From the NCBI GenBank assembly GCA_000002445.1, contig CP000070.1, positions 320,001 through 384,000 of the forward strand: 64,000 bases of DNA, given 5' to 3'. The position numbers and the translations under genes were made by a program. Positions 3,934 to 25,534 of this stretch are shown here, piece by piece (position 1 is the stretch's first letter; every line of letters starts with the position of its first letter). This stretch comes from Trypanosoma brucei. Lineage: Eukaryota. Below the pieces are notes generated by a model. That model saw only the letters and a list, made by a program, of their open reading frames with translations, ran no database searches and had not been told where the DNA came from.

Positions 3934-3943
3934 CACAGTTGAG

Positions 3944-3974
3944 GTGTGTGTCTATGTGTGTGTGTGTGTGTGTT
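3944..3974. repeat. (GT)n microsatellite immediately 3' of sphingosine-kinase-like stop
   Basis: gtgtgtgtctatgtgtgtgtgtgtgtgtgtt read directly. Confidence 0.9.
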
Positions 3975-5132: not shown

Positions 5133-5218
5133 TCCTTCACTTGCTGTCCCCTCCCCCCTCTCTCTCTCTTTCTCTCTATTCTTTCCGTTTATTTGTATTA
5201 ACTTTTTGTGTTTCCGTA
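5133..5218 (+). promoter_or_regulatory. Long polypyrimidine tract + AG upstream of pentapeptide-repeat gene (copy 1; identical tract at 9355-9440 for copy 2)
   Basis: gttccttcacttgctgtcccctcccccctctctctctttctctctattctttccgtttatttgtattaactttttgtgtttccgtAG. Confidence 0.45.
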
Positions 5219-5418
5219 GTCTTATGATTAGACGTGTGTTCAAATAAACACGCAAGTGGTAACGTTGCATTCTACAATATTTCTGCTTTTGTGCACCTTT
5301 TATGGTACAGGTGTTGCTGAAGGTGCATAATAGAAGTACGGCCCACCATCATCACCACGTACGGTTTTCGTGATTCTGCGACTGGTGTCAACAAAAGGGA
5401 AGGGTACTCGAGGAGGAA

Positions 5419-6405: not shown

Positions 6406-7283
6406 CTGTTGAAACTGCAAGATGAATGACACGAAATAAAGAAGCTTTCGGCTACTATTGGGTTGCCTTGCGTCTGTTTATTTGTTTCATTACTTGAACG
6501 CTTATGTCTGAAGAAGTGAAGGATGGGGTGGAATGTTAAAATGCAGACTAAAACTTTCCCCACGCGCTTAAATGCATTCACCATCAAGTGGGATCTGAAG
6601 GAATACTTATCATCCCCTTCAATTATTGGTACTCATCCATCAATACATGCAACCCAATCAGGTATTTACTCTCTGCTCCAAACAACAAGAATCAGTTACG
6701 TGCGTCATTGGATTTACACGTCCTCTCCTTTTTTTTTTCGTTCGTTTTCAAAATATTCATTTGAATGTGTTTTGACATTCTTCTGTATCATCATTACACT
6801 TTATCTGCAGCGATGAGGTTTGGGAAAAGGGAAAATGTACGAATGGCCGTGCGACTTGCTTCTTTCAGTTCCTTTAACCTTATTGAGTTTCCTTCATTGC
6901 TGTGTCGTGCTGTACACAACACTTTGTGTGCTGGTTGGAATTATGTGGGGATGTTTTTTTTTTTTGCATTTCCCTCTCCACACAGTAAGCCCCTCATCAT
7001 CATTTTCACATTTCTCATCAATCAACATTATAAATACCTGCCCATTGGGTTGTCTGTTACGTGATATGCGTGTAAAATATTCTGGTTCCTTCCTTTCGCA
7101 TGTTTCTGTGGATACTCGAATGTACATATATTTTTTCCTAATCATTTTCCATGCTATTTCTTCCCTATCACTCTTATGGGAAAGTTTGTTTGTCCTGTAC
7201 TTACGAAACCAAGCGCAAGTACATTAGTGTCATACCAATCAGAAAGGTTCGCAGTATTATTCTTATTCTTATTGTGCCCGTGG

Positions 7284-7322
7284 TATATATATATATATTT
7301 ATATATATACGTACATATATAC
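7284..7322. repeat. (TA)n microsatellite inside repeat copy 1 (length differs from copy 2 tract at 11504-11541)
   Basis: tatatatatatatttatatatatacgtacatatata; copy 2 has atatttatatatatttatatatatacgtacatatata, accounting for the 3-bp offset change between copies. Confidence 0.85.
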
Positions 7323-7526
7323 ACCTTTCTATTATTCTAGGTTGGTGCCTTTTTAAAAGTCTTCCCATTAGTTTTTTTTGTGAACATATCCCTATTACTA
7401 GCACTGCCACTGTTACTGTTTGGCTCCTTCTTTGAGTGAGCGCCTGCATCCATTTAAGTGTATATTTATTATTTTTTCGGAAACCACAACCAATTGAACG
7501 ACTACTAAAAGCAAACCAAACAAAAG

Positions 7527-8228
7527 ATGATGGAAAGTATGAACCTTGAACAACCACCACGACTAAACGCCGACCCCTGGCGAGATATGGAGCCAAAGGT
7601 GGATGCAATGCTAGGCGATCTACTCATGATATCTGAGCGTTTCCGAAGGATCGTAAATCCGACAGTGTCTGATGCAGATGAATTAATTGAAGCCATCAAC
7701 TCTGTGGGTGGAGAAGTTGAGACGATGCGGGTCGCTTTAGACACTACGATTGAGCGGCCGGAACTCTTTTCTGTAGATGCGGAAGAATTGAAAAGACGCA
7801 CGGAGAAAACTCGCTCGTGGGAGCGCGATGTTGCGAAAGCCATCGAGTTGCGATCAAAGATATTATCAAACCGTGAAGGGCAAATACAGGATCCACTTGA
7901 GAGTAACGTAATGACACCAAATACATGGGTTGATTTGGACACAACTCATATTCATCCATCAGCTCAGTCGTCGCATATGCCAATGAATAGTTGTGAAGCG
8001 ACTACTGACACATCTGTTGGTGTTGTTGAGTCTCAAGCTCTTATGCCAGTTGGAATACCCATACGTGAGCAAACAGTGAAGGCATCCGAATACTCAACCG
8101 CAAGTGTCGAGGTGCATACAGTGGATGATGTGGATGATCCCAATAATGAGGGATCTCTACTAAAGTACGTATTGGTTATCCTCTTAGTATCATCCATTCT
8201 TGTAGCAATATCGTTGATTTTCTTCTGA
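7527..8228 (+). CDS. Tail-anchored membrane protein with N-terminal helical/coiled domain (copy 1), 233 aa
   Basis: ATG ATG start; N-terminal helical segment (ERFRRIVNPTVSDADELIEAINSVGGEVETMRVALDTTIERPELF... RRTEKTRSWERDVAKAIELRSKIL), S/T-rich linker, single C-terminal hydrophobic segment LLKYVLVILLVSSILVAISLIFF at the extreme C-terminus; no SNARE motif adjacent to TM so not called a SNARE. Confidence 0.5.
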   Translation: MMESMNLEQPPRLNADPWRDMEPKVDAMLGDLLMISERFRRIVNPTVSDADELIEAINSVGGEVETMRVALDTTIERPELFSVDAEELKRRTEKTRSWERDVAKAIELRSKILSNREGQIQDPLESNVMTPNTWVDLDTTHIHPSAQSSHMPMNSCEATTDTSVGVVESQALMPVGIPIREQTVKASEYSTASVEVHTVDDVDDPNNEGSLLKYVLVILLVSSILVAISLIFF

Positions 8229-8755
8229 TTTTTTGATACTGAACTTTATCTCCTCTAATTGTTTCTTTTTGCGTGACTATCCTTCATCCTATGTTAAACG
8301 AAAGTAGGAGCTTATGTTTACGTATGTAGGTGCGCATTTTCTTTGTGGAAATATGTATGCATGCGTGTGGTTTTCTTTTTCATTAAAGCCTGCGAGGTGA
8401 ATGATGGAGTTTTGCTTCATATTTTATACAGAGATTGCTTAATTTGTCTTTCAGTTTCTAACTGTTTTTACCTTTTATTTCATTTATCGTAATGAAAGCC
8501 TACACTGAGCACAAGATACAAACAAGCGGTGTAGGGGAATGCTGCAAGTAACATTTGTAGTTTAAAAGTTATAACTGCAACTGAAAAGTCTCCCAATGGG
8601 CGCAGAAAGGTTTACAAACTTTACAGCTCTAAGAGCTTTCGCAGAAGCATATGCGCAAACGATTTTGTCGCCCAATATTTGGTGCTGGTACGTTACATGT
8701 GAAAAGTTCAATGATATCTGAAGTAAGGGAAATGACATCCGTATTTCTCTCGGAT

Positions 8756-8767
8756 GGGGGGGGGGGG
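8756..8767. repeat. Poly(G)12 homopolymer in spacer between the 3.3 kb repeat copies
   Basis: gatgggggggggggggaaag. Confidence 0.8.
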
Positions 8768-9640
8768 AAAGAAGCTTGGTTTCACATGTTCGGGTTAATC
8801 CTTGATATCCTTCAGCGTAATAAGACATAAATTCATCCTCAGCTCTGTCGAACAGGCGCGAGCGAAGGTTTTGGAATGAATGTTGGGCTCTCACGTAATG
8901 CAACCCCAATCCTTTTCAACGTTGCAAAATGACTTAAGGACAACTGCTTTGATAAAGATGGGGTATACACGAAAACTCACTGTTGAAGCGGGAACACAGG
9001 CATTTGATTAAAAGATAGTTAAGAATGATGAAAGGCGACAACTATAAAATGCAGGAAAATATTATGTTAGCCGCGGGAGCAGGTTTAATGAAGGGCGATC
9101 GAGTAACATAAATGGAAAACAGCGGCGAGTACATGGACCACTTAAATAAATGACAAAAGTGCAGCACCTTGCGCAATTGAAAGAGATGCTTTGTGGGAAT
9201 CGTTGCGTCTCTCACTTTGTTTTTTATTTTTATTTACTACTCTTTTTTTTTTTTTGAGAAGGCGTGTATTTCGAAGGAGGATAAATAGAAGTGATGAATA
9301 TTTCAAATATCTCCTTGTATGTATATATATATATATGCGGTTTACTTTAATAGTTCCTTCACTTGCTGTCCCCTCCCCCCTCTCTCTCTCTTTCTCTCTA
9401 TTCTTTCCGTTTATTTGTATTAACTTTTTGTGTTTCCGTAGTCTTATGATTAGACGTGTGTTCAAATAAACACGCAAGTGGTAACGTTGCATTCTACAAT
9501 ATTTCTGCTTTTGTGCACCTTTTATGGTACAGGTGTTGCTGAAGGTGCATAATAGAAGTACGGCCCACCATCATCACCACGTACGGTTTTCGTGATTCTG
9601 CGACTGGTGTCAACAAAAGGGAAGGGTACTCGAGGAGGAA

Positions 9641-10627
9641 ATGCAACGCCGCTTGCAGTGTTGTTTAATGCGTGTAGCGCGCTTACATTCGGCAGCATTG
9701 ATGCATAATACAAATGGTTGGCTTATGATATCTTGCAGAACCGTACGCATTACAGAGAGTGAGGCACAGTCGTTGGTACATTTGTCTGAGGCGCTTTTTT
9801 CTGATGAGGCAAATGCTCTGGGAGTATGTCTACCCGATACCAGCCTTAACCTTGACGGAGAAAGTGGGGAAGGGGATTTATATACTGAGACACTCACAAC
9901 AGAGAAGTATATGGATGTGCTCGTTAGTTCACCAACACAAATAGATACGAGGGGAAATGTTTCTGCTTCATCAACGGATCTGATGATGCCGCTTACGCAA
10001 GCGGTGCAAGAACTGAAGTTATGTCAGCAAAGAGAAGATCAGCGAGCCATTTCTGCAGCGCTTTCAACAGCCATGTGTGCGTTGATGGGAAGTAGTTCAT
10101 CTCCTTCCAGTGCTGCTGCAGCTGAGTTATTGTTAGCCGGTGCAGACTTGAAAGCAATCATTTCTGATGGTACTATTCGACATATGTGCATTGAGGATAA
10201 ATGCATGAGTCGATGTGATTTTTCCACTTTGTCACTACTTTCTGTACAGGCAAATCGCGTGGATTTCTCGCGCAGTCTCTTTTATGCTGCTGCCTTCCAT
10301 AATTGTGTGTTTAGGAACTGCTCTTTTGAGGGGTGTGTACTGAAGGAACTCCGATGTTTAGGAGATGTGTGTTTTGATGGATGCTCCTTTTGTTTTGCGA
10401 ACATATCGTTACGTATACCTCATGAGAAACCGAGGCGTATTTCGGTATCTTCGGCTGCCACAGAAGGCGTGGGAAGGTATTCTGCGGAACATGCTGTGAT
10501 ATTTAACCGCTGTGATTTTGACCTCTGTGATTTTGATGGTTGTGATACCCTTCCTGCATCTTGCTTTACGAACTGCACCAATACTCACCTCGCCGCCAAA
10601 TTTTCGTCATGTGTGAGAACATCATAA
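9641..10627 (+). CDS. Pentapeptide-repeat-containing protein (copy 2), 328 aa
   Basis: Identical to 5419..6405 product except RTVHITE->RTVRITE. Confidence 0.6.
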   Translation: MQRRLQCCLMRVARLHSAALMHNTNGWLMISCRTVRITESEAQSLVHLSEALFSDEANALGVCLPDTSLNLDGESGEGDLYTETLTTEKYMDVLVSSPTQIDTRGNVSASSTDLMMPLTQAVQELKLCQQREDQRAISAALSTAMCALMGSSSSPSSAAAAELLLAGADLKAIISDGTIRHMCIEDKCMSRCDFSTLSLLSVQANRVDFSRSLFYAAAFHNCVFRNCSFEGCVLKELRCLGDVCFDGCSFCFANISLRIPHEKPRRISVSSAATEGVGRYSAEHAVIFNRCDFDLCDFDGCDTLPASCFTNCTNTHLAAKFSSCVRTS

Positions 10628-11745
10628 CTGTTGAAACTGCAAGATGAATGACACGAAATAAAGAAGCTTTCGGCTACTATTGGGTTGCCTTGCGTCTGTT
10701 TATTTGTTTCATTACTTGAACGCTTATGTCTGAAGAAGTGAAGGATGGGGTGGAATGTTAAAATGCAGACTAAAACTTTCCCCACGCGCTTAAATGCATT
10801 CACCATCAAGTGGGATCTGAAGGAATACTTATCATCCCCTTCAATTATTGGTACTCATCCATCAATACATGCAACCCAATCAGGTATTTACTCTCTGCTC
10901 CAAACAACAAGAATCAGTTACGTGCGTCATTGGATTTACACGTCCTCTCCTTTTTTTTTCGTTCGTTTTCAAAATATTCATTTGAATGTGTTTTGACATT
11001 CTTCTGTATCATCATTACACTTTATCTGCAGCGATGAGGATTGGGAAAAGGGAAAATGTACGAATGGCCGTGCGACTTGCTTCTTTCAGTTCCTTTAACC
11101 TTATTGAGTTTCCTTCATTGCTGTGTCGTGCTGTACACAACACTTTGTGTGCTGGTTGGAATTATGTGGGGATGTTTTTTTTTTTTGCATTTCCCTCTCC
11201 ACACAGTAAGCCCCTCATCATCATTTTCACATTTCTCATCAATCAACATTATAAATACCTGCCCATTGGGTTGTCTGTTACGTGATATGCGTGTAAAATA
11301 TTCTGGTTCCTTCCTTTCGCATGTTTCTGTGGATACTCGAATGTACATATATTTTTTCCTAATCATTTTCCATGCTATTTCTTCCCTATCACTCTCATGG
11401 GAAAGTTTGTTTGTCCTGTACTTACGAAACCAAGCGCAAGTACATTAGTGTCATACCAATCAGAAAGGTTCGCAGTATTATTCTTATTCTTATTGTGCCC
11501 GTGATATTTATATATATTTATATATATACGTACATATATACACCTTTCTATTATTCTAGGTTGGTGCCTTTTTAAAAGTCTTCCCATTAGTTTTTTTTGT
11601 GAACATATCCCTATTACTAGCACTGCCACTGTTACTGTTTGGCTCCTTCTTTGAGTGAGCGCCTGCATCCATTTAAGTGTATATTTATTATTTTTTCGGA
11701 AACCACAACCAATTGAACGACTACTAAAGGCAAACCAAACAAAAG

Positions 11746-12447
11746 ATGATGGAAAGTATGAACCTTGAACAACCACCACGACTAAACGCCGACCCCTGGC
11801 GAGATATGGAGCCAAAGGTGGATGCAATGCTAGGCGATCTACTCATGATATCTGAGCGTTTCCGAAGGATCGTAAATCCGACAGTGTCTGATGCAGATGA
11901 ATTAATTGAAGCCATCAACTCTGTGGGTGGAGAAGTTGAGACGATGCGGGTCGCTTTAGACACTACGATTGAGCGGCCGGAACTCTTTTCTGTAGATGCG
12001 GAAGAATTGAAAAGACGCACGGAGAAAACTCGCTCGTGGGAGCGCGATGTTGCGAAAGCCATCGAGTTGCGATCAAAGATATTATCAAACCGTGAAGGGC
12101 AAATACAGGATCCACTTGAGAGTAACGTAATGACACCAAATACATGGGTTGATTTGGACACAACTCATATCCATCCATCAGCTCAGTCGTCGCATATGCC
12201 AATGAATAGTTGTGAAGCGACTACTGACACATCTGTTGGTGTTGTTGAGTCTCAAGCTCTTATGCCAGTTGGAATACCCATACGTGAGCAAACAGTGAAG
12301 GCATCCGAATACTCAACCGCAAGTGTCGAGGTGCATACAGTGGATGATGTGGATGATAGTAGGAGCTCTAATTCTGCTAAGAAGACGGTCTTGATTATAT
12401 TTTTTGCATCGTCTCTTCTTGTGGCTATACTGGTGATTTTCTTTTGA
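11746..12447 (+). CDS. Tail-anchored membrane protein (copy 2) with diverged C-terminal anchor
   Basis: Identical to copy 1 for ~205 aa, then ...VDDVDDSRSSNSAKKTVLIIFFASSLLVAILVIFF instead of ...VDDVDDPNNEGSLLKYVLVILLVSSILVAISLIFF. Confidence 0.5.
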   Translation: MMESMNLEQPPRLNADPWRDMEPKVDAMLGDLLMISERFRRIVNPTVSDADELIEAINSVGGEVETMRVALDTTIERPELFSVDAEELKRRTEKTRSWERDVAKAIELRSKILSNREGQIQDPLESNVMTPNTWVDLDTTHIHPSAQSSHMPMNSCEATTDTSVGVVESQALMPVGIPIREQTVKASEYSTASVEVHTVDDVDDSRSSNSAKKTVLIIFFASSLLVAILVIFF

Positions 12448-12505
12448 TTTTTTGATACTGAACCTTATCCGCTCTAATTGTTTCTTTCTGTTCGCTTGTT
12501 GTTAC

Positions 12506-16722: not shown

Positions 16723-19700
16723 ATGGAGTCAAAACGCTTTTCGGTGGGGTCCGAAACTCAGCTTCCGCTAAGGTTCCGGCGCAGTTACACCAGTGACGCA
16801 GCCGGCATTGCCCAATTGAGAAAAATCGCGAGCGTCGCGCAATGTATCCCGCCCACCGCAATGTACCCGTGGAAAACGGAGTCAGAATTCACGACGCTCA
16901 TTGAACAATCCGTGATATCTATTACAGCGATATCTACAGTAATTGACAAGCCTGTCGGGTTCATTTGTCTTGACGACACACCGCACACAACGTTGATACC
17001 TGGAGACAGCTGGGAGGTTCTACTAGATGATAGTGACGGAGATTGTGATAAGCCCCTATCAATCTTTCCGTGCAACACCCTATGGGTGAAGGCAGTTCTC
17101 GTTCCTACATCTACTGCCCTTATGTCAGACTCTACAAATATGACGAAAGAGGATTTAGACTTACAAAGAAAGCTGCTACTTTTCGGCTATTCTTCGGAGG
17201 CGCTTCTTCAGCGTTTTCTCCATATTGCGTTAGACAACCTTCCTTCAATCGAGCACCTGTTGGTTCCCTGCCCAATGGGGCAAACTTACCGCGTGTTTGA
17301 AAACATCGGCTTCCGCCCCAGGCCTCTGCAACCCTCATCCTTCAACGGAACCGTACTTCATATCAAATCCGTCAGTATTGTGCCGCAGTTGCTTTTGCGA
17401 CTTGGTATCGTAGAGGACTATGACGATTTTGTGGTTAGGATTCTCGGTGGTGACGGCCTCATCACATCTTTGCCGGAGGAGTTTTATCTTGACGAGCTGT
17501 TAAAAGACCAGAATAGCAACAACAAGGTGATTGTCGCCGAGGACGCCGTGACGCACCGTGTCGCCGGAATTATGTGCCTTGAGGCCTCCATCGAGGATCA
17601 GCAAATGATATCACGACAGTACTACACCGAGTTGTACGGAAAGCTTCGCCCTATGCGAGGGCAACGCAACGCCTCGAAAGGTGCGGTCACTTCCAATATG
17701 GTGAGGATTAAGTTTTTCTACATTGACCCGGCGTACGCGCTGCGGGCTAAGAGTTTCTTGCCGGTCATATACAAGGAGTTTCCGTTCGTTGAGTACGTTA
17801 TTATTACTCTGCCGTACGACACCGAAAAGCCGCCGTTCCTTGGGGACTTTGATCATATCCCACTTCGCAAATATTACCCCAGGAACTCTGAAGGTTATCT
17901 GATACCGCCGCCCGATGGCCTCTGGATCAACTGCAGGTACGCGGCGGATCCAGTGGTCGCTACACCTGTGCGCAGTGAAAAAGACATAACATCCATCAAT
18001 GTCTTCTTGGATGAGCCACACATGGAATTTTCTCAACATCAAATCACTTTGTTGAGGGAGGATATACAACGCCTGCGGAGCGGTAGGGAAACCCCTGAGG
18101 ATGTCGAAGAGTCGAACATCAACAGCTTTGTCTTTTCCTTTGTCACGTACACAGAGAATGTAGGGAGTGAGAAACAGTTACCTATTGTCGTTGGCGTTGC
18201 CTCCGCGCGGAAAATTTCAGTTAATGAAATGTATAGTTTACGTGCAAACTATGACCTCGACAAGCTAGTAAACTACTACTCGAAGGCCCCTCGGGACTAC
18301 AGCGAAACAGACGTAACGCTCAGTTCTGAGGAGGGACGGCGAAAGTTCTTCAGGAACGAGGTGAGAGGTTTGCTCGTTCGCAGTTTCTACGTGAGGCCTG
18401 TGTATCGTAGTCGTATTTCCTTCTTGATGAGGGAATTGTTGCGACACACAGACTGTGAGTTGGCATTATTGCTAGAAGATAATGCCAGTTCACCCTTCAC
18501 CACCTTGTTGCATCAGTTACTGCGCATCCAACCTCGACGAGTGGTGGAGAAACCTCGCCCTCCGGCAAGCGAACCGGTATTCACACCAAGAAGCCCAGAA
18601 AGGATACCAAGTAAGGATGTCTCACCCCTTGGTTGCCTTTTTGCCGCCACGCGTAGAACTCTTGGGGACCGCAAAAAACTGGTACATACACGCATTATTG
18701 TCGTGGGCGCCGGCTCCACTGGTCTGACGTTTCTTTATCGTCTTCTTACCGTGCCGTACATTTGTTTCACTAACCTGGTGCTTATCTCTACTGATGGCAT
18801 GCCGGAGCATCCTAACCAACAGCAGAACCTCTGGAGCACCGATCGGATGGAACTACTTGAACGAGAACATATGGGACTCACAGTGGGGAACCCTATTCGC
18901 GTTATCCACGGCTCTATGGTCGATATTGAAACTGCCCAGCGTTATGTTGTCGTTGACGACAGCACTTATGAGCCGTATGACTATGTTATTCTCACAACGG
19001 GTAGGCAATTTGGCGTGCCTCTTTCCATAAGTAGCCTTCAACAACCAGTGCAGCAGCGGCAGCAGTTGTCACGGACGAGCACACCTCCTGGTGTTCTGCC
19101 GATCTCTGGTTCGGCTTCTGTAGAAAGGTTGCAGCGGACCCTGTATGAATTGGACCGTAACCCAGAAAATGTCAGCAACATTGTGGTGTACGGCTCCGGT
19201 CTAGACGCCTTTGCTATTGCCACATCCATCATCAACCTCGGTTTCTCACCGCAACGTATGGTGTTGGTGAGTCCGGATGTAACAAATCCATTCGTTGACA
19301 AGGACGCCTTTGAATGTGTTGTGAGAATGTGGAGTGCATTGGGGGCGAATACGATGCATGGGTACAAGATCAGTCGCACAGAATACGATGATGATGGTAC
19401 CACATTAACAACCGTCGTTCTTTCACCCGTGCCCGCATTAGCCGCTCCGGCTGGTCCTGGGACCGATTCCAATGCCCGAAGTTCTGTTGAGATCAACTGC
19501 AGCCTTATCGTCTGCTGTGAGGATAAGGATATTGACAGTAATGTACTTTCCACACTGAACAGGCGCTCGATTGTGTTCGACGGTCGCGTCACGGTTGAGT
19601 CCAACTACCTCACGACGAACCCGTGCGTATACGCAACAGGGCCTGTTGCAATGTTCACACGGCGGTACGGCACGACGACCAGTTTCGATGAATTCAACGC

Positions 19701-20766
19701 GAGGGACGTGGGAACAAACTTGGCGGAGGTTATACTTGGTACGCTTGGGTTCGAGGAGTTTGCTACGCCAAACCTTCAGTCGTGCACAGATAAGGAGAAC
19801 GAATTGCTTGCAGCGCATAATGAACTGTACAGTAAAGTCCTCGATGAGAACGGTAGTCGCAACGCAAATTATGGTGTCGACCTTAATTCTCTGTCGGCGG
19901 AAAAGGATGCCCATGAGATTGCAAAGCAAAACCAACTTAAGCAACAGCAGAAACTCCCAGTGTATACCACGCCCGTTGCGAGCCGAATTCGTCTTCCTGG
20001 GAAGTACGTTTTCTTCAGTACTATGCGCATATTTTTTGACCCCGCGCAGTGCACGCGATTGTACTATTCCTGTATAGAAGACAACAAACCTTATGTAGAT
20101 GACATAACAGCCTCTTATCAAGTGGCAACACCTGCCGACAGGGGCTCAATATATAAAGACGTGGAGCAGGACCTTCTTGTAATTTACTTGAACAAACACA
20201 CGCGACTCATTGATGCTGTGGTGTACTTTGGTAATGGCAGTCCTGAGACGCACAACTATATGTGCCTGATTGGTTTGCCTCACTCCTTGTTGAACCTCAT
20301 CTTTCGCTATAATGAAGCCCGCACGGACTTGCTGGAAAGCGATGATTGCGGCTCCAACAGCAGTATGAGCGGGAGTAAGAGCACCGCAAGCAACAAAATA
20401 GATATTGTTGCTCAAGAAAGCACTCTAAATCTCATGGAATATCTTCGGTCACCAAGGTTGCAGGTTGTCTTTTACGATCGGTTCGTGGAGTTCTACGAAA
20501 ACCTCCGTAAGAAGATGCAAGAGCATGAGGATGTGATGAAAATGAAGCAGAGTGCACTCCAGAGAATGGAAGTGACACCACGTATTAGCGCTAAAAACCG
20601 TGCGATATATCTAGAAAAACTGACGGAGATGCAAAAAGACTTTGCACGGAGGGTTCAGTACGAGCTCATCAAATTCCTCCACGAAAGCAAAGAGTACCTG
20701 CCACAGATCATGTACCTGCCAGACATTACGGAGCATGTGGAAAAAAATGAGGGTCGACAGGAGTGA
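16723..20766 (+). CDS. Large flagellar-type protein with pyridine-nucleotide-disulfide-oxidoreductase-like tandem dinucleotide-binding motifs; CFAP61-like (1347 aa)
   Basis: ATG start; mid-protein TRIIVVGAGSTGLTFLYRLL (GxGxxG) and later IVVYGSGLDAFAIATSIINLGF (second Rossmann motif) with TTGRQFG between them - the FAD/NAD(P)-binding arrangement present in CFAP61/FAP61 radial-spoke-associated proteins; size comparable (~1250 aa in other eukaryotes). Family assignment from memory only. Confidence 0.45.
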   Translation: MESKRFSVGSETQLPLRFRRSYTSDAAGIAQLRKIASVAQCIPPTAMYPWKTESEFTTLIEQSVISITAISTVIDKPVGFICLDDTPHTTLIPGDSWEVLLDDSDGDCDKPLSIFPCNTLWVKAVLVPTSTALMSDSTNMTKEDLDLQRKLLLFGYSSEALLQRFLHIALDNLPSIEHLLVPCPMGQTYRVFENIGFRPRPLQPSSFNGTVLHIKSVSIVPQLLLRLGIVEDYDDFVVRILGGDGLITSLPEEFYLDELLKDQNSNNKVIVAEDAVTHRVAGIMCLEASIEDQQMISRQYYTELYGKLRPMRGQRNASKGAVTSNMVRIKFFYIDPAYALRAKSFLPVIYKEFPFVEYVIITLPYDTEKPPFLGDFDHIPLRKYYPRNSEGYLIPPPDGLWINCRYAADPVVATPVRSEKDITSINVFLDEPHMEFSQHQITLLREDIQRLRSGRETPEDVEESNINSFVFSFVTYTENVGSEKQLPIVVGVASARKISVNEMYSLRANYDLDKLVNYYSKAPRDYSETDVTLSSEEGRRKFFRNEVRGLLVRSFYVRPVYRSRISFLMRELLRHTDCELALLLEDNASSPFTTLLHQLLRIQPRRVVEKPRPPASEPVFTPRSPERIPSKDVSPLGCLFAATRRTLGDRKKLVHTRIIVVGAGSTGLTFLYRLLTVPYICFTNLVLISTDGMPEHPNQQQNLWSTDRMELLEREHMGLTVGNPIRVIHGSMVDIETAQRYVVVDDSTYEPYDYVILTTGRQFGVPLSISSLQQPVQQRQQLSRTSTPPGVLPISGSASVERLQRTLYELDRNPENVSNIVVYGSGLDAFAIATSIINLGFSPQRMVLVSPDVTNPFVDKDAFECVVRMWSALGANTMHGYKISRTEYDDDGTTLTTVVLSPVPALAAPAGPGTDSNARSSVEINCSLIVCCEDKDIDSNVLSTLNRRSIVFDGRVTVESNYLTTNPCVYATGPVAMFTRRYGTTTSFDEFNARDVGTNLAEVILGTLGFEEFATPNLQSCTDKENELLAAHNELYSKVLDENGSRNANYGVDLNSLSAEKDAHEIAKQNQLKQQQKLPVYTTPVASRIRLPGKYVFFSTMRIFFDPAQCTRLYYSCIEDNKPYVDDITASYQVATPADRGSIYKDVEQDLLVIYLNKHTRLIDAVVYFGNGSPETHNYMCLIGLPHSLLNLIFRYNEARTDLLESDDCGSNSSMSGSKSTASNKIDIVAQESTLNLMEYLRSPRLQVVFYDRFVEFYENLRKKMQEHEDVMKMKQSALQRMEVTPRISAKNRAIYLEKLTEMQKDFARRVQYELIKFLHESKEYLPQIMYLPDITEHVEKNEGRQE

Positions 20767-20852: not shown

Positions 20853-20870
20853 ATATATATATATATATAT
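20853..20870. repeat. (TA)n microsatellite
   Basis: tatatatatatatatata. Confidence 0.85.
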
Positions 20871-20920
20871 CATTATATGTAATGCATACACATGTTTCAA
20901 TCACTGCTGAGTCCTTCGGC

Positions 20921-21050: not shown

Positions 21051-21385
21051 TAGGGAAACTAACAAGAAAGTGGCACTTATAGGGGTTGAGCTCCTCTTAT
21101 CAGGCTCCCTGATGGCAGCAGCGGTGATCAAAATTGTCACTTCTGTCTTTAGCATTTTGTTATTTTTATGCATTGCATATTGTTTTTCTTCTTGAAAGGT
21201 ATATATGTGTACATATGTTTGTATTATTATTGTTATTATCACTTATCGCATTCCCTTTTACTGTGTTCAAGGTTCTATACGCTACAAGTAAAGTTTTTTT
21301 TTCTCAAGGGCAGGGCAGCCACCAGATAAAGGAAGGGAAGTAATCTGCTTATTTGAATCGAACAACAAAAGCTATAAAAAGAGCA

Positions 21386-21787
21386 GCTAATTACAGGCAG
21401 TTCCGCTTACGACTAAGCAGATTTCATTCAGCAACTAAAGCAACACAGGTATGCTCCGCGTTTCCATTCCCGCACTCAAGACGCTGCAGCCTCTGGGCTC
21501 GCGTGTGCTGGTGAGACGCACTCTGGCAGCCAAGCAAACAAAGGCCGGTGTGCTCATCCCCGAGCAAGTTGCTGGTAAAGTCAACGAGGGTACCGTTGTC
21601 GCTGTGGCGGCTGCAACAAAGGACTGGACACCGAGTGTGAAGGTTAATGACACTGTGCTACTTCCTGAGTTTGGTGGAAGCAGTATTAAGCTGGAAGGAG
21701 AGGAACTGTTCCTCTACAACGAAGACTCGTTGCTTGGTGTTATCCAGAATTGAAGGGTGGACAGTAACCGCTAACGTGCATCACGTC
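21386..21787 (+). repeat. HSP10 duplication unit copy 1 (~402 bp: 65 nt 5' flank + CDS + ~35 nt 3')
   Basis: Identical to 23583..23984 (offset 2197 bp); identity starts at gctaattacaggcagttccgcttacgactaagc and ends after ...ctaacgtgcatcacgtc. Confidence 0.9.
21451..21753 (+). CDS. HSP10: 10 kDa heat shock protein / chaperonin Cpn10 (GroES homologue), mitochondrial, 100 aa, copy 1
   Basis: MLRVSIPALKTLQPLGSRVLVRRTLAAKQTKAGVLIPEQVAGKVNEGTVVAVAAAT...LPEFGGSSIKLEGEELFLYNEDSLLGVI: GroES fold with mobile-loop KTKAGVLIPE and GKV.EGTVVAVA roof region. Confidence 0.9.
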   Translation: MLRVSIPALKTLQPLGSRVLVRRTLAAKQTKAGVLIPEQVAGKVNEGTVVAVAAATKDWTPSVKVNDTVLLPEFGGSSIKLEGEELFLYNEDSLLGVIQN

Positions 21788-22228
21788 ATTCTCTGGTGGC
21801 ACTTTGTTCCCCTCTCGTGTCCTACACGCTCCGCTTCCAGCCTGGTCTGTTTCATTGCTGCGTAAAGGGTGAGAAGCCGTGATAGCGCGAGGAGTGGGGA
21901 ATGGAGTGCATGCCACACTTCTATTTCTATTTACACTTTTATTTTTTTTATTTTAATATTACATCATCGAATTTGTCGGACACCTTCCTTGATTTAGTTT
22001 GTGTGAACCACCGTAGTTGCTTTTTTTTTAAAAAAAAAGAAGGCAACCCTGCCATCCACAATTGCAGTCGCACATATTTTCACTACCATTCTTTTTTATT
22101 CCTTCCCACGGGGGTGGAGTGTGCTAAGTTGTGTGTGTAACATTTAAAATAGCACCGCGCATTCGTACACGGGAAACCTCAAAGGGTCCGTAAAGCAAAA
22201 GAAGAGGAAAAGAAAGAATCACGCGGGC

Positions 22229-23296
22229 ATGTTTTGTGACGCTGAAGATGGGGCTGCCATAGTTTCTCATATTCCAATAAGTCCTTTTGTCCCAATACAA
22301 CACAATAATATTGATGTCTCCGCTGTGAATCGCCTTGCAAACTTCGCCATTCGCTTCGCCAGGGAACACGGCTGGTGTTCCAGTCACCCTTTCAAGATGA
22401 GCTCGGGCCCCAAAATTGGAGAGAATAAAGGCGAGAGCAATGAACTTGATGATATCACTGTTTTCTATGCGGGTGTGGAGGTTGAGCTTGCCGAAGAAAC
22501 CCCGAAGTTCAAAAGAGAGGGCACTCCTGCGTCTCTCTTTCTCTATGCACAGTTATGGCTCTCACATGTAGGTGTGAGCAGCAATGGCCTGTGTGGCAAA
22601 CTCTTTAGCTTCAAGAAGGATGAGGAGGATTGCAGGGAGTTTCTGGGTTCGTTCAAGCTCACAGGCGTTACCGTGTCAAGAACGACTCGTAAACCCACGC
22701 CTATTCCCGCGCCGCGACTCGAAATGATGCGTTCTTTGATCGCAAAAAACACAGCGGCATCGGAGCTGCCCAGGGTTGAGCGTATTAACTTCTCACAGCT
22801 CAACGAGCGGTGCCGTTTCGCTTCTGTCCGCTCCCACGAGGAATTTGCGTGTGCACTTCCATCGCACCCGGCCGTGGCTCCGCTGAAAGTTGGGTACCGC
22901 CGTGAGTTTCACCTGAGAGAAACCGATTTCGATTTTAACAGGCACGTAAACCAGGTTGTAACCATCACAATGGTCATCAACACCTTTCGAGCTGCTTTGG
23001 GTGACAACACAACCATTTTCCCGCGCTTGTTAGATACCGATGTCCACCCTCTGGATGGCGATTTGCTCATCCGAAGGCTACGCATTGACTACGTTCGGGA
23101 GGTACCTGCTGACCACGCCGCCATGGCAGTAATGTTATTCTTTCAAGATGATGTCTCAATGGATAATGTCATTGCGTCTTCCACAAATTCGAGAAAAAAA
23201 TCCCTTACTGAACTTTGGTTTATTGTGCAGGGAATCCCGGCCGCTGAGACCAATCCATTTGTCTCCGCGGTTGGTAAGGTGCTTTTGCGGTGCTGA
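22229..23296 (+). CDS. Hypothetical protein with acyl-ACP-thioesterase-like (hotdog) signature, 355 aa, between the two HSP10 copies
   Basis: ATG start; C-terminal half contains ETDFDFNRHVNQVVTITMVINTFRAA, matching the D-x-N-x-HVN-x catalytic-region motif of FatA/FatB-type acyl-ACP thioesterases (PF01643, from memory); no other family recognised. Confidence 0.4.
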   Translation: MFCDAEDGAAIVSHIPISPFVPIQHNNIDVSAVNRLANFAIRFAREHGWCSSHPFKMSSGPKIGENKGESNELDDITVFYAGVEVELAEETPKFKREGTPASLFLYAQLWLSHVGVSSNGLCGKLFSFKKDEEDCREFLGSFKLTGVTVSRTTRKPTPIPAPRLEMMRSLIAKNTAASELPRVERINFSQLNERCRFASVRSHEEFACALPSHPAVAPLKVGYRREFHLRETDFDFNRHVNQVVTITMVINTFRAALGDNTTIFPRLLDTDVHPLDGDLLIRRLRIDYVREVPADHAAMAVMLFFQDDVSMDNVIASSTNSRKKSLTELWFIVQGIPAAETNPFVSAVGKVLLRC

Positions 23297-23582
23297 CGAG
23301 ATATACCCCGGTGAAACACCTTAAATGTGTTCCCCGTTTAAGGACTTCGACGCCCATGCTAAGGGGAGATAAGTTTATTAAAATGAAACATCGTTGAAAC
23401 ACAGGGGGGAAACAAGGCAAAAATTGGAAAGAAAATATACTTTGTGAAGTTCACACCCACGTGCTCTGTTGGTCGAACTGGACCCAAACCGTAATTGCAC
23501 TCTGCCTTTCCCCACCTTTGCATGCCCGAATTAATGTACATTTCTCGCTTTCCTTTCTTTACAAGTAACCAGTGACCCAGAA

Positions 23583-23984
23583 GCTAATTACAGGCAGTTC
23601 CGCTTACGACTAAGCAGATTTCATTCAGCAACTAAAGCAACACAGGTATGCTCCGCGTTTCCATTCCCGCACTCAAGACGCTGCAGCCTCTGGGCTCGCG
23701 TGTGCTGGTGAGACGCACTCTGGCAGCCAAGCAAACAAAGGCCGGTGTGCTCATCCCCGAGCAAGTTGCTGGTAAAGTCAACGAGGGTACCGTTGTCGCT
23801 GTGGCGGCTGCAACAAAGGACTGGACACCGAGTGTGAAGGTTAATGACACTGTGCTACTTCCTGAGTTTGGTGGAAGCAGTATTAAGCTGGAAGGAGAGG
23901 AACTGTTCCTCTACAACGAAGACTCGTTGCTTGGTGTTATCCAGAATTGAAGGGTGGACAGTAACCGCTAACGTGCATCACGTC
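23583..23984 (+). repeat. HSP10 duplication unit copy 2
   Basis: See copy 1; downstream flank diverges (ccacatatgggatgcgagacc... vs attctctggtggcactttgttcc...). Confidence 0.9.
23648..23950 (+). CDS. HSP10: 10 kDa heat shock protein / Cpn10, copy 2 (identical protein)
   Basis: 100/100 aa identical to 21451..21753. Confidence 0.9.
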   Translation: MLRVSIPALKTLQPLGSRVLVRRTLAAKQTKAGVLIPEQVAGKVNEGTVVAVAAATKDWTPSVKVNDTVLLPEFGGSSIKLEGEELFLYNEDSLLGVIQN

Positions 23985-24481
23985 CCACATATGGGATGCG
24001 AGACCCGCTATTTCCATTATCTATTTTCTTATTATCACTATCACTATTGTTATTTTTAATTACTGTTCGGACAAGTGAAACGATTTTCTCCACTTCCTGT
24101 GTTCGCCCATCGGTATGCATCGGATTTTGGGACACTAACATTCATCGCATTGCGCGCGCTTGACGCCCCCGGCACCGGGGCAGTTGTATCAGTTCACTTT
24201 TTCCTAAATTTTGGTCACTACGTTTCCCTTTTTAAAAAAAAATTATTCTTTCCCCGGCAATCCCGTTTCGCCACTATTACGCCTCGCATTGGGATGCACA
24301 GTGGCAAAGGTTGTCCCACGGGCGGTCAACTAGTGTGGGATACGTTCCCATAATTACACATTTGTGGTAGGTAAAAGCACGTTCGGTATTTTCAGTGTTG
24401 CACAGGAGGCCCTAGTGCAGTTCTGCAACGGCGTTGCTGTGACTTCTCTTGACTCGTTTGTTGCATGTGCCCGCGGTGGAG

Positions 24482-25534
24482 ATGTTTCGCTATCGTTGCC
24501 GCAACGCTAAAAACCTGTTGCTGATGCGCAACATACGCCGTTGGTACACAAGTGCGGGCAACGATGAGAGTCTACCATCCGCGCAAGGACCACCGTTGGC
24601 AGGCGTTTCATCACCAACGCTGTGGAGGAACGGTGGTGTGCTGGGCGAGGGCATGTTGGGAAACCCACGTGTGGCAGCAACAACACCGCAGGAGGTGGAG
24701 GAAACGTTTCGCTGCTCCGTCCTTGCCCGTACGGTTAGCAACTTGAAATTGCGGCGTTACCTCCAGAAATTGGAACCAAAGGATCACACATTAGTCCTTG
24801 CGGCTCTTCGTGGAGCTCAAGCTGGTGGGCTTCGATTGGATACGAAAACTAACGAAGTGGCCCTCTCTAAGCTGATGGATGGAGGCCAACTGCAGGCAAG
24901 TATGGAGATTTATCGGAAGATGATTCAGAATCGTATGAATCCAACAGCAAACACATATGCCACGCTTATGCACATGTGCATCGAGCGGGATATGCCGGAG
25001 GCGTGCCAGAAACTTTTTGAGGAGATGGTCAAGCGTGGCCAGTCACCCAACACACGGAACTACGAAATGTATATTGGGTCGCTCGCAATGGAAAATCCGC
25101 CCAAATGGAAAAATGCTATTGAGGTGTTTGACCGCATGTCACGGGAGCGTCACGGCAAACACCTGACGGCAGCAACATACGAGTCCCTTATGCGCGTCTA
25201 CCTGAATATGACGCCATTTGACTGGCGGGTGGTTTACAACTGCTACTATGAGATGCGCTCTCGCCAACCCCAAATTCAGCTACGGTGGGAGACCTATCAC
25301 TTGGTGGCGGAAGCACTGCGCCGTGGTCAAGCAGGGTACACGCGGCGCCTCATCACGTACTTGGATGCGTGGTTTTGTATAACGTACTTTCGCTCCTGGG
25401 AGTTTTTCATGGGCTTCATGTTTTACATCTGCCTGATGTTTCTTATTAAGGGTCTTATTAGTTGGGTGGTTGTCTGGTACTACGGGCGCGCCGTTAACGC
25501 AAGCAGGGGTGCGTCGGAGTCTGTCATCTTATAG
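24482..25534 (+). CDS. Pentatricopeptide-repeat (PPR)-like protein, probable mitochondrial; track start 24449 is TTG, first ATG 24482 (MFRYRCRNAKNLLLMRNIRRWY)
   Basis: R-rich amphipathic N-terminus; degenerate ~35-aa helical repeats with PPR character (MEIYRKMIQNRMNPTANTYATLMHMCIERDMPEACQKLFEEMVKRGQSPNTRNYEMYIGSL..., AIEVFDRMSRERHGKHLTAATYESLMRVYL). Confidence 0.55.
   Translation: MFRYRCRNAKNLLLMRNIRRWYTSAGNDESLPSAQGPPLAGVSSPTLWRNGGVLGEGMLGNPRVAATTPQEVEETFRCSVLARTVSNLKLRRYLQKLEPKDHTLVLAALRGAQAGGLRLDTKTNEVALSKLMDGGQLQASMEIYRKMIQNRMNPTANTYATLMHMCIERDMPEACQKLFEEMVKRGQSPNTRNYEMYIGSLAMENPPKWKNAIEVFDRMSRERHGKHLTAATYESLMRVYLNMTPFDWRVVYNCYYEMRSRQPQIQLRWETYHLVAEALRRGQAGYTRRLITYLDAWFCITYFRSWEFFMGFMFYICLMFLIKGLISWVVVWYYGRAVNASRGASESVIL

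What the first reader, a model, noticed from the sequence alone, without database searches (positions are those of the whole stretch)
21386..23984. HSP10 tandem pair with identical CDS and 5' flank but unrelated 3' flanks, sandwiching a third gene
The two Cpn10 genes are 100% identical over the CDS plus 65 nt upstream (same splice-acceptor / 5'UTR), but identity stops ~35 nt after the stop codon, so the copies carry different 3'UTRs. In kinetoplastids mRNA abundance and stage-specific expression are largely set by 3'UTR elements. This arrangement points to differential post-transcriptional control of two otherwise identical chaperonin genes. Preserving identity strictly over the CDS plus 5' flank suggests concerted evolution.
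Basis: partly seen in the sequence, partly recalled or inferred. Interest (0 to 1): 0.5.

Follow-up and report, generated by a model that had tools for sequence, protein, structure and literature searches.

The report
Twin HSP10 genes kept identical
Two copies of a small mitochondrial chaperone gene in Trypanosoma brucei flank an unrelated gene and are kept letter-for-letter identical by recombination, while their mRNAs end in different tails; this is a clean but ordinary example of a pattern already well known in these parasites.

Summary
An exact 403-nt direct repeat (window 21385-21787 and 23582-23984) holds the 303-nt Cpn10/HSP10 CDS plus 66 nt upstream and 34 nt downstream. The flanks beyond it are unrelated, and a 355-aa thioesterase-like gene lies between the copies. 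The window is T. brucei TREU927 chromosome 7 (Tb927.7.1320/1330/1340).

Concerted evolution is strongly supported. The HSP10-thioesterase-HSP10 order is shared by T. vivax, T. theileri, T. melophagium, T. rangeli and L. major. Paralogues have dS = 0 within each of these (0.013 for one T. theileri pair; T. vivax copies near-identical, dS not computed). Between species dS is 0.8-1.5.

Published poly(A) mapping (Kolev 2010) gives 3'UTRs of 252 nt and 127 nt, so both mRNAs extend past the shared 34 nt.

"Same splice acceptor" is not supported. A spliced-leader junction for copy 1 lies 114 nt upstream of the repeat, and both polypyrimidine tracts are outside it.

Differential regulation is untested. 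The one hint is an RBP10 motif, UA(U)6, present only in the copy-1 3'UTR. Different 3' flanks are also the automatic result of a gene sitting between the copies.

This is a known kind (Leishmania HSP70-I/II; T. brucei tandem arrays), so interest is low to moderate.

The parts
21385..21787 (+). Repeat copy 1: exact 403-nt homogenised tract (66 nt of 5' flank, the HSP10 CDS, 34 nt of 3' flank)
   Evidence: Exact-match extension; the repeat finder
23582..23984 (+). Repeat copy 2: identical 403-nt tract, 2197 nt downstream of copy 1
21451..21753 (+). HSP10/Cpn10 gene copy 1 (Tb927.7.1320), 100 aa
   Evidence: Pfam PF00166 at 78.5 bits. Protein identical to AAZ12197.1/AAZ12199.1.
23648..23950 (+). 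HSP10/Cpn10 gene copy 2 (Tb927.7.1340), 100 aa, CDS identical to copy 1
21272..21450 (+). 5'UTR of copy 1 as seen in one trans-spliced RNA-seq contig (179 nt). The splice-acceptor AG is at 21270-21271, preceded by a polypyrimidine tract at 21251-21259. Only the last 66 nt are shared with copy 2.
   Evidence: Logan contig L004 starts with the last 25 nt of the T. brucei spliced leader joined to window 21272. Tract positions.
21754..22005 (+). 3'UTR of copy 1, 252 nt (predominant poly(A) site at chr7 342005 = window 22005). The first 34 nt are shared with copy 2; the remaining 218 nt are unique.
   Evidence: Kolev 2010 Table S13. The TriTrypDB 3'UTR sequence in PMC5568443 supplement file 1 matches the window at 21753-22005, including the last base of the stop codon.
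21940..21947 (+). UA(U)6 motif, the RBP10 binding motif, in the unique part of the copy-1 3'UTR (+187 after the stop). It is absent from the copy-2 flank.
   Evidence: Motif scan. PMC5568443 Table 1 lists one UA(U)6 for Tb927.7.1320.
22229..23296 (+). Intervening gene Tb927.7.1330: 355-aa double-hotdog, acyl-ACP-thioesterase-like protein
   Evidence: Identical to XP_845757.1. Pfam Acyl-ACP_TE_C matches 9 of 10 orthologues weakly and 4HBT_2 matches 7 of 10. The top Foldseek hits are FatA/FatB thioesterases at E about 1e-9, on a low-confidence model.
23548..23560 (+). Polypyrimidine tract upstream of copy 2. The predicted splice-acceptor AGs at 23564, 23571, 23579 and 23582 lie outside or at the edge of the repeat.
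   Evidence: Sequence scan. This is a prediction; no spliced-leader junction was recovered for copy 2.
23951..24077 (+). 3'UTR of copy 2, 127 nt to the predominant poly(A) site (chr7 344077). The average site is 344103, giving 153 nt. The first 34 nt are shared; the rest is unique.
   Evidence: Kolev 2010 Table S13
16723..20766 (+). Upstream syntenic neighbour: CFAP61-like gene
   Evidence: Pfam CFAP61_N. It holds the same position in all species examined.
24482..25534 (+). Downstream syntenic neighbour: PPR-repeat protein (350 aa from the ATG at 24482)
   Evidence: Pfam PPR_2. Gene calls in L002. Same position in L. major, T. theileri and T. vivax.

Best explanation
The locus is an ancient cassette, HSP10 - thioesterase-like gene - HSP10, inside one + strand polycistron of T. 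brucei TREU927 chromosome 7.

The two HSP10 genes are old duplicates that are repeatedly homogenised by recombination between them, through gene conversion and/or unequal crossing-over. The identical island is confined to the CDS and a few tens of nucleotides either side. The surrounding sequence belongs to different intergenic regions and has no homology to carry a conversion tract further.

In trypanosomes each mRNA's 5' and 3' ends are set by the neighbouring polypyrimidine tract and splice site. The two genes therefore necessarily give mRNAs with the same ORF and the same proximal 66 nt of 5'UTR, but different distal 5'UTRs and different 3'UTRs (252 nt against about 127-153 nt).

Shown here: the repeat, its conservation and homogenisation across species, the two poly(A) sites, and one splice site for copy 1.

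Inferred:
- The main function of the pair is dosage of a highly expressed co-chaperonin.
- The copy-1 mRNA alone is a target of the bloodstream-form repressor RBP10 through its single UA(U)6 motif. That would make copy 1 procyclic-enriched and copy 2 more constitutive. I put this last step at about 0.35-0.4.
For: 1. Exact 403-nt repeat with random-level flanks.
2. The order CFAP61 - HSP10 - thioesterase-like - HSP10 - PPR is shared by T. brucei subspecies, T. vivax and L. major. T. theileri, T. melophagium and T. rangeli carry variants of it, and Bodo saltans has HSP10-HSP10-TE-TE at the same place.
3. Nei-Gojobori dS between paralogues is 0 in T. brucei, T. theileri (copies 1 and 2), T. melophagium, T. 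rangeli and L. major. It is 0.013 for T. theileri copies 2 and 3 and 0.08 in Bodo. Between species it is 0.8-1.5 (nucleotide identity 99-100% within against 70-85% between).
4. Tract edges differ by lineage:
- T. brucei: -66 to +34.
- T. vivax: about -33 to +68.
- L. major: 0 to +19/+29.
- T. theileri: -50 to +10 for one pair and -94 to +99 for another.
5. The synonymous site Pro37 is CCC in both TREU927 copies and CCT in both copies of DAL972 and T. b. equiperdum. The +4 site is G/G in TREU927 but G/A in the other two. Homogenisation has therefore acted within the T. brucei complex.
6. T. melophagium has (HSP10-TE)x2-HSP10 with identical TE proteins, the expected product of unequal crossing-over between HSP10 repeats.
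7. Poly(A) sites at +252 and +127 (average +153). The copy-1 3'UTR sequence is confirmed.
8. A spliced-leader junction for copy 1 at AG 21270/71.
9. HSP10 mRNA is bound by RBP10, rises 2.1-fold on rbp10 RNAi and is 2.2-fold higher in procyclic than bloodstream forms (PMC5568443). UA(U)6 is present only in the copy-1 3'UTR in three subspecies assemblies.
10. HSP10 mRNA is abundant, at about 53 RNAs per cell for the two copies together (Kolev Table S6).
Against: - No copy-specific expression data exist in the sources I could read. ORF read counts for the two genes are equal because the reads multi-map, so differential regulation is unproven.
- The 3' flanks show no detectable similarity between species, so there is no evolutionary evidence that either UTR carries a conserved element.
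- One UA(U)6 in a T-rich 3'UTR can occur by chance.
- Gene conversion and unequal crossing-over cannot be told apart from these data.
- The copy-1 splice site rests on one assembled RNA-seq contig, and the copy-2 site is only predicted.
Confidence: 0.8

Rival explanations
1. Dosage only. The pair exists solely to double the output of an abundant co-chaperonin in a genome without gene-specific promoters. On this view the different 3'UTRs are a by-product of having another gene between the copies and have no regulatory meaning.
For: - HSP10 is among the abundant mRNAs.
- Copy number varies freely between lineages: 2 in T. brucei and L. major, 3 in T. theileri and T. melophagium, at least 4 in T. 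rangeli.
- The flanks are not conserved between species.
- Jackson 2007 argues that dosage is the general role of T. brucei tandem arrays (PMC1855330).
Against: - The two mature mRNAs do differ by more than 200 nt of UTR.
- In trypanosomes 3'UTRs are the main site of control. A known repressor motif is present in one copy only and is kept in three subspecies.
Confidence: 0.45
2. A recent, lineage-specific duplication or insertion of a 403-nt HSP10 segment in T. brucei. The identity would then reflect youth rather than homogenisation.
For: Perfect identity with sharp edges is what a very young duplicate looks like.
Against: - The same HSP10-X-HSP10 layout, with an orthologous middle gene and the same outer neighbours, is present in T. 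vivax and L. major, with variants in T. theileri, T. melophagium and T. rangeli.
- In each of these the paralogues are identical or near-identical to each other.
- Independent recent insertions on both sides of the same gene in at least six lineages are not credible.
Confidence: 0.02
3. Purifying selection on the protein alone keeps the copies identical, with no recombination between them.
For: HSP10 is highly conserved at the protein level (dN 0.06-0.2 between species).
Against: - Synonymous sites are saturated between species but show zero differences within each species.
- 100 nt of non-coding flank are also identical.
- A synonymous strain polymorphism is shared by both copies.
Confidence: 0.02
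4. An assembly artefact: one HSP10 gene wrongly duplicated in the reference.
For: Repeats are error-prone in assemblies. The T. equiperdum OVI assembly shows only one chimeric copy.
Against: - Three independent Trypanozoon assemblies show two copies, and two of these carry a copy-specific SNP.
- Two separate poly(A) clusters map to the two unique 3' flanks.
- The OVI case is the reverse error, a collapse. Its middle gene sits alone on a 1,878-bp contig.
Confidence: 0.01

Closest known systems
Leishmania HSP70-I / HSP70-II genes (Quijada, Folgueira, Requena; summarised in PMC3185273)
   Same: A chaperone gene family in a trypanosomatid polycistron. The copies share the coding region and 5'UTR but carry unrelated 3'UTRs. 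The arrangement is conserved across species.
   Different: - For HSP70 the two 3'UTR classes are each conserved across Leishmania, and they have been shown experimentally to give different mRNA accumulation and translation on heat shock.
- For HSP10 neither conservation of the UTRs nor different behaviour has been shown.
- HSP70 copies are directly tandem, whereas the HSP10 copies are separated by an unrelated gene.
- Only the proximal 66 nt of the HSP10 5'UTR are shared.
Concerted evolution of T. brucei tandem gene arrays (Jackson 2007, PMC1855330)
   Same: Paralogues cluster by species, coding sequences are identical apart from rare silent changes, terminal UTRs are curtailed or different, and gene conversion is the inferred mechanism.
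   Different: That survey covers head-to-tail arrays and its main text does not mention HSP10. Here the two copies are interleaved with a different gene, so the homologous island is only 403 nt and conversion must act across a 1.8-kb non-homologous spacer (about 5 kb in L. major).
L. major HSP10 genes LmjF26.0620 / LmjF26.0640 and L. donovani CPN10
   Same: These are the orthologous locus. Two genes 'with almost identical sequence' are already noted in the literature (PMC4488524). The protein is mitochondrial, co-precipitates with HSP60, and is induced by heat and in amastigotes (PMC1097755).
   Different: The literature I read does not describe the UTR divergence, the intervening thioesterase-like gene or the homogenisation. 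In L. major the identical tract starts exactly at the ATG.
RBP10 regulon of T. brucei (Mugo and Clayton 2017, PMC5568443)
   Same: HSP10 mRNA is listed among 31 selected RBP10 targets, with one UA(U)6 motif in the Tb927.7.1320 3'UTR.
   Different: That analysis counted ORF reads and used one gene as representative, so it cannot say which copy is bound. Copy 2 lacks the motif.

Membership tests
Cpn10/GroES co-chaperonin (Pfam PF00166) | Sequence match to the Cpn10 profile above the curated threshold, in a protein of about 100 aa | tested here: met
   78.5 bits against a cut-off of 21.1, covering residues 12-98 of 100. It is 74-93% identical to annotated trypanosomatid HSP10 proteins.
Cpn10/GroES co-chaperonin (Pfam PF00166) | Mitochondrial location and partnership with HSP60 | not testable with these tools
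   Shown for the L. donovani orthologue only (PMC1097755).
Concertedly evolving duplicate genes (gene conversion / unequal crossing-over) | Paralogues within a species are more alike than orthologues between species, including at synonymous sites | tested here: met
   dS is 0 within five species and 0.8-1.5 between species.
Concertedly evolving duplicate genes (gene conversion / unequal crossing-over) | The duplication predates the species splits (shared position and neighbours) | tested here: met
   CFAP61 - HSP10 - TE-like - HSP10 - PPR is found in T. brucei, T. vivax and L. major, with variants in T. theileri, T. melophagium and T. rangeli.
Concertedly evolving duplicate genes (gene conversion / unequal crossing-over) | Evidence of recent transfer: a polymorphism fixed in both copies of one lineage | tested here: met
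   Pro37 is CCC in both TREU927 copies and CCT in both copies of DAL972 and T. b. equiperdum. The +4 site is homogenised only in TREU927.
Identical-CDS, different-3'UTR, differentially regulated gene pairs (Leishmania HSP70-I/II type) | Mature mRNAs carry different 3'UTRs | tested here: met
   Published poly(A) sites lie at +252 and +127 (average +153), and only 34 nt are shared.
Identical-CDS, different-3'UTR, differentially regulated gene pairs (Leishmania HSP70-I/II type) | A common 5'UTR and splice acceptor | tested here: not met
   The copy-1 spliced-leader junction is at 21270/71, 114 nt upstream of the repeat. Both polypyrimidine tracts lie outside the repeat, and only 66 nt are shared. 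The copy-2 site is predicted, not observed.
Identical-CDS, different-3'UTR, differentially regulated gene pairs (Leishmania HSP70-I/II type) | Each 3'UTR type is conserved between species | tested here: not met
   Local alignments of positionally equivalent flanks between T. brucei, T. vivax, T. theileri and T. rangeli score no better than shuffles. The divergence is large, so this is weak negative evidence.
Identical-CDS, different-3'UTR, differentially regulated gene pairs (Leishmania HSP70-I/II type) | The two mRNAs differ in abundance or translation under some condition | not testable with these tools
   Published tables count ORF reads that map to both copies. No copy-specific values were found in the supplements of PMC2916883, PMC2926603 or PMC11405848.
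RBP10 target mRNAs | A UA(U)6 motif in the 3'UTR | tested here: met
   Copy 1 has one motif at 21940-21947, kept in three subspecies assemblies. Copy 2 has none, only UA(U)5A at 24051. The feature is therefore met for copy 1 only.
Acyl-ACP thioesterase (double hotdog; middle gene Tb927.7.1330) | Two hotdog domains matching the FatA/FatB fold and profile | tested here: inconclusive
   - Pfam Acyl-ACP_TE_C scores 20.6 bits, just under the cut-off of 21. It matches weakly in 9 of 10 orthologues, and 4HBT_2 matches in 7 of 10.
- A PDB profile search hits 2own at E = 0.033.
- The top 30 or so Foldseek hits are acyl-ACP thioesterases at E about 1e-9, but TM-scores are 0.28-0.37 on a model with mean pLDDT 57.
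- Catalytic residues and substrate were not examined.

The most novel reading that the evidence does not exclude
UTR-level division of labour under CDS homogenisation. The copy-1 mRNA (252-nt 3'UTR with a UA(U)6 motif) would be repressed by RBP10 in bloodstream forms and rise in stumpy and procyclic forms as the mitochondrion is activated. The copy-2 mRNA (about 127-nt 3'UTR, no motif) would supply a constitutive or heat-responsive baseline.

A second, independent possibility is that the two HSP10 repeats act as a recombination substrate that changes the dosage of the enclosed thioesterase-like gene. One copy is seen in T. brucei and two in T. melophagium.
Probability: 0.35. Interest if true: 0.4.

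Novelty: new member of a known kind. Interest (0 to 1): 0.25.

Why it matters
The locus is a compact, well-bounded example of how trypanosomatids can keep a protein invariant while its copies sit in different mRNA contexts. It offers a simple natural test of 3'UTR-specific control: same ORF, two UTRs, one of them carrying a known repressor motif.

There is also a practical point. Standard RNA-seq pipelines count ORF reads and cannot separate the two genes, so published HSP10 values, including 'RBP10 target', are sums of two different mRNAs.

The case does not change current understanding. Both the mechanism and the pattern are established for other trypanosomatid genes.

Tried and rejected
- **Splice-site tables.** The Kolev 2010 SAS tables (S4, S12) were truncated in the held copy before chromosome 7. 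The Siegel 2010 supplements are not held. The Nilsson 2010 and Trenaman 2024 supplements do not list these genes. No published splice site was therefore obtained, and I used one spliced-leader-bearing Logan RNA-seq contig instead.
- **Copy-2 transcripts.** I looked for a copy-2 transcript contig through the thioesterase-like protein. It covered only 22044-23435 and carried no spliced leader.
- **T. equiperdum OVI.** Its single chimeric HSP10 (copy-1 5' flank, copy-2 3' flank) first looked like a real deletion by recombination. I rejected that because the middle gene TEOVI_000847000 exists alone on a 1,878-bp contig, the signature of repeat collapse.
- **Cross-species flank alignments.** These gave no signal. 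The one z = 6.4 pair was between non-equivalent flanks. I did not inspect that alignment; a low-complexity match is my guess.
- **ZC3H11 heat-shock regulon.** HSP10 is not mentioned as a whole word in Droll 2013 or Minia 2016.
- **cDNA-mediated conversion.** I considered it because the repeat begins at an AG. I rejected it because the tract is complete at the 5' side and cut short at +34 on the 3' side, the opposite of what reverse transcription from the poly(A) tail would give.
- **Contig L006.** It has an unrelated 713-nt 5' part, which I treated as a likely chimeric assembly, not as a third locus.
- **First structure job.** I reran it with eight rows.
Full report
**What is there**

The window carries an exact 403-nt direct repeat, 21385-21787 and 23582-23984, offset 2197 nt. 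Each copy comprises 66 nt of 5' flank, a 303-nt ORF (21451-21753 and 23648-23950) and 34 nt after the stop. The 100 nt beyond either edge are 28-29% identical, which is the random level.

The ORF is a 100-aa Cpn10/HSP10 (Pfam PF00166, 78.5 bits). Between the copies lies a 355-aa ORF on the same strand (22229-23296).

**Identity of the window**

- The 100-aa protein is found unchanged in Trypanozoon assemblies.
- The middle protein is identical to XP_845757.1 of T. b. brucei TREU927.
- The TriTrypDB 3'UTR of Tb927.7.1320, printed in a supplement of PMC5568443, matches window 21753-22005 when compared by eye.
- With the published poly(A) coordinates, the window is chr7 320001-384000.

The three genes are Tb927.7.1320 (HSP10), Tb927.7.1330 and Tb927.7.1340 (HSP10). 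The neighbours are a CFAP61-like gene upstream and a PPR protein downstream, all on the + strand.

**The middle gene**

It is annotated 'thiolester hydrolase' or 'thioesterase-like superfamily' in some relatives.

- Pfam Acyl-ACP_TE_C matches weakly in 9 of 10 orthologues, and 4HBT_2 in 7 of 10.
- A profile search of the PDB gives a marginal hit to an oleoyl-ACP thioesterase (E = 0.033).
- An AlphaFold model is of low confidence (mean pLDDT 57). It still shows two helix-plus-sheet halves, and its top Foldseek matches are all FatA/FatB-type acyl-ACP thioesterases at E about 1e-9, with TM-scores of only 0.28-0.37.

I call it a double-hotdog thioesterase-like protein, with moderate confidence.

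**Concerted evolution**

I fetched the orthologous loci. The gene orders are:

| Species | Order at the locus |
|---|---|
| T. b. gambiense, T. b. equiperdum | CFAP61 - HSP10 - TE-like - HSP10 - PPR |
| T. vivax | HSP10 - TE-like - HSP10 - PPR |
| L. major | HSP10 - TE-like - HSP10 - PPR (middle gene 38% identical) |
| T. theileri | HSP10 - TE - HSP10 - unrelated 413-aa gene - HSP10 |
| T. melophagium | (HSP10 - TE) x2 - HSP10, the two TE proteins identical |
| T. rangeli | at least four HSP10 copies around one TE gene |
| Bodo saltans (free-living) | HSP10 - HSP10 - TE - TE, at the same place |

HSP10 coding sequences are 99-100% identical at the nucleotide level within every species and 70-85% between species. 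Nei-Gojobori dS is 0 between paralogues in T. brucei, T. theileri (copies 1 and 2), T. melophagium, T. rangeli and L. major. It is 0.013 for T. theileri copies 2 and 3 and 0.08 in Bodo, against 0.8-1.5 between species.

The edges of the identical tract differ by lineage:

| Species | Identical tract (relative to ATG and stop) |
|---|---|
| T. brucei | -66 to +34 |
| T. vivax | about -33 to +68 |
| L. major | 0 to +19/+29 |
| T. theileri | -50 to +10 and -94 to +99 |

Within the T. brucei complex, the synonymous site Pro37 is CCC in both TREU927 copies (21561 and 23758). It is CCT in both copies of DAL972 and T. b. equiperdum. The site 4 nt after the stop is G/G in TREU927 but G in copy 1 and A in copy 2 of the other two.

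These data exclude a young duplication, selection alone, and an assembly artefact. They show continuing homogenisation. Gene conversion and unequal crossing-over cannot be separated here. The T. melophagium expansion is what unequal exchange between the HSP10 repeats would produce.

**The mRNAs**

Kolev et al. 2010 (PMC2936537, Table S13) report:

| Gene | Predominant poly(A) site | 3'UTR | Average site |
|---|---|---|---|
| Tb927.7.1320 | chr7 342005 | 252 nt | 341998 |
| Tb927.7.1340 | chr7 344077 | 127 nt | 344103 (153 nt) |

.

At the 5' end, a Logan RNA-seq contig (L004, run ERR7929156) begins with the last 25 nt of the T. brucei spliced leader, as I recall its sequence. The leader is joined at the AG at 21270/21271, which gives a 179-nt 5'UTR for copy 1. 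Only the last 66 nt of that UTR are repeated.

The polypyrimidine tracts of both copies (21251-21259 and 21294-21305 for copy 1; 23548-23560 for copy 2) lie outside the repeat. For copy 2 the first AGs after the tract are at 23564-23582, so its 5'UTR is predicted at about 66-84 nt. 'Same splice acceptor' is thus not supported. 'Same proximal 5'UTR' is.

**Is there differential control?**

Nothing I could read separates the two mRNAs. The tables in PMC5568443 give virtually equal ORF counts for both genes because the reads multi-map. Kolev lists one joint abundance of about 53 RNAs per cell.

The one concrete lead comes from Mugo and Clayton:

- They list HSP10 mRNA among RBP10 targets.
- It rises 2.1-fold on rbp10 RNAi in bloodstream forms.
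- It is 2.2-fold higher in procyclic than in bloodstream forms.
- It has one UA(U)6 motif in the Tb927.7.1320 3'UTR.

That motif is at window 21940-21947, in the unique part of the copy-1 3'UTR, and is kept in DAL972 and T. b. equiperdum. The copy-2 flank has none.

Three points weigh against reading much into this:

- Positionally equivalent flanks show no detectable similarity between species.
- A single short U-rich motif can be fortuitous.
- Unrelated 3' flanks are the automatic result of the layout. The 3' end of copy 1 is set by the thioesterase gene's splice signals and that of copy 2 by the PPR gene's.

HSP10 is reported as heat-inducible in T. brucei (bioRxiv 10.64898/2026.01.20.700697). 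It is induced in amastigotes and by heat in L. donovani (PMC1097755). Neither study resolves the copies.

**Comparison with what is known**

The closest system is the Leishmania HSP70-I/HSP70-II locus. There the CDS and 5'UTR are shared and the 3'UTRs differ, with demonstrated differences in mRNA accumulation and translation (PMC3185273).

Jackson 2007 describes the general phenomenon for T. brucei tandem arrays: species-wise clustering of paralogues, identical CDS, and curtailed or different terminal UTRs (PMC1855330). HSP10 is not mentioned in that paper's main text.

The two nearly identical L. major HSP10 genes are already noted in the literature (PMC4488524).

This study adds the following:

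- exact tract boundaries;
- the shared layout interleaved with an orthologous thioesterase-like gene across the trypanosomatids sampled;
- dS = 0 (or 0.013) among the trypanosomatid paralogues measured;
- evidence of homogenisation within the T. brucei complex;
- the link between the published poly(A) sites and the repeat edge;
- the copy-specific RBP10 motif.

**Verdict**

The inference of concerted evolution is correct and now well supported. Distinct 3'UTRs are confirmed, a shared splice acceptor is not, and differential regulation remains a reasonable but untested hypothesis (about 0.35-0.4). This is a new, tidy member of a known kind, of low to moderate interest.

Noticed in passing
window 4963-8268 and 9185-12487: A second tandem duplication in the window. 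A 3.3-kb two-gene unit (ORFs of 328 aa and 233 aa: 5419-6405 with 7527-8228, and 9641-10627 with 11746-12447) is repeated at 98.6% identity, intergenic DNA included. This is a whole-unit duplicate, unlike the CDS-limited HSP10 island. Pfam gives only a sub-threshold pentapeptide-repeat hit for the 328-aa protein.
   Followed up: partly
L003 (T. equiperdum OVI, CZPT02001763.1) 9065-9367: This assembly shows a single chimeric HSP10 with the copy-1 5' flank and the copy-2 3' flank, and no middle gene. The middle gene TEOVI_000847000 sits alone on a 1,878-bp contig, so this is a repeat collapse in the assembly and not a deletion.
   Followed up: yes
L007 (T. theileri) 8150-9391: A 413-aa ORF with no Pfam match and no relative in the window occupies the spacer between the second and third HSP10 copies of T. 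theileri. T. melophagium has a second thioesterase-like copy at that position.
   Followed up: partly
L013 (T. melophagium) 3199-7685: The (HSP10 - thioesterase-like) unit is present twice, followed by a third HSP10. The two thioesterase-like proteins are identical, and the unit lengths are 2089 and 2101 nt. This looks like a recent expansion by unequal exchange. The third HSP10 was fused to the PPR gene in the deposited gene call.
   Followed up: partly
L015 (T. vivax GCA_021307395.1) 6904-7973 and 8275-8577: In this assembly the thioesterase-like gene is split by a frameshift, and the second HSP10 copy has a 1-nt deletion right after the ATG. The other T. vivax assembly (L009) has an intact thioesterase-like gene. 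These are probably sequencing errors.
   Followed up: partly
L012 (Bodo saltans) 8001-11934: At the syntenic site Bodo has two directly tandem HSP10 genes (dS 0.08) followed by two thioesterase-like paralogues that are only 30% identical. The HSP10 / thioesterase-like neighbourhood therefore predates parasitism, and only the HSP10 pair is homogenised.
   Followed up: partly
L006 (Logan ERR7929163 contig) 1-713: This RNA-seq contig joins an unrelated 713-nt segment with a 139-aa ORF to the HSP10 copy-1 5'UTR at about window 21332, without a spliced leader. It is probably a chimeric assembly, and I did not identify the foreign part.
   Followed up: no
window 20853-20871: A (TA)n microsatellite lies in the CFAP61-HSP10 intergenic region (seen).
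   Followed up: no
window 22229-23296 compared with other Trypanozoon strains: The thioesterase-like protein differs at 1-6 of 355 residues between T. brucei-group strains (for example K67E, C122Y, I263V, A297T), while the flanking HSP10 protein is invariant.
   Followed up: no
PMC1097755 (L. donovani CPN10): Southern blots suggested a single CPN10 copy in L. donovani, against two in L. major. Identical CDS copies or real copy-number variation could explain this. I did not resolve it.
   Followed up: no
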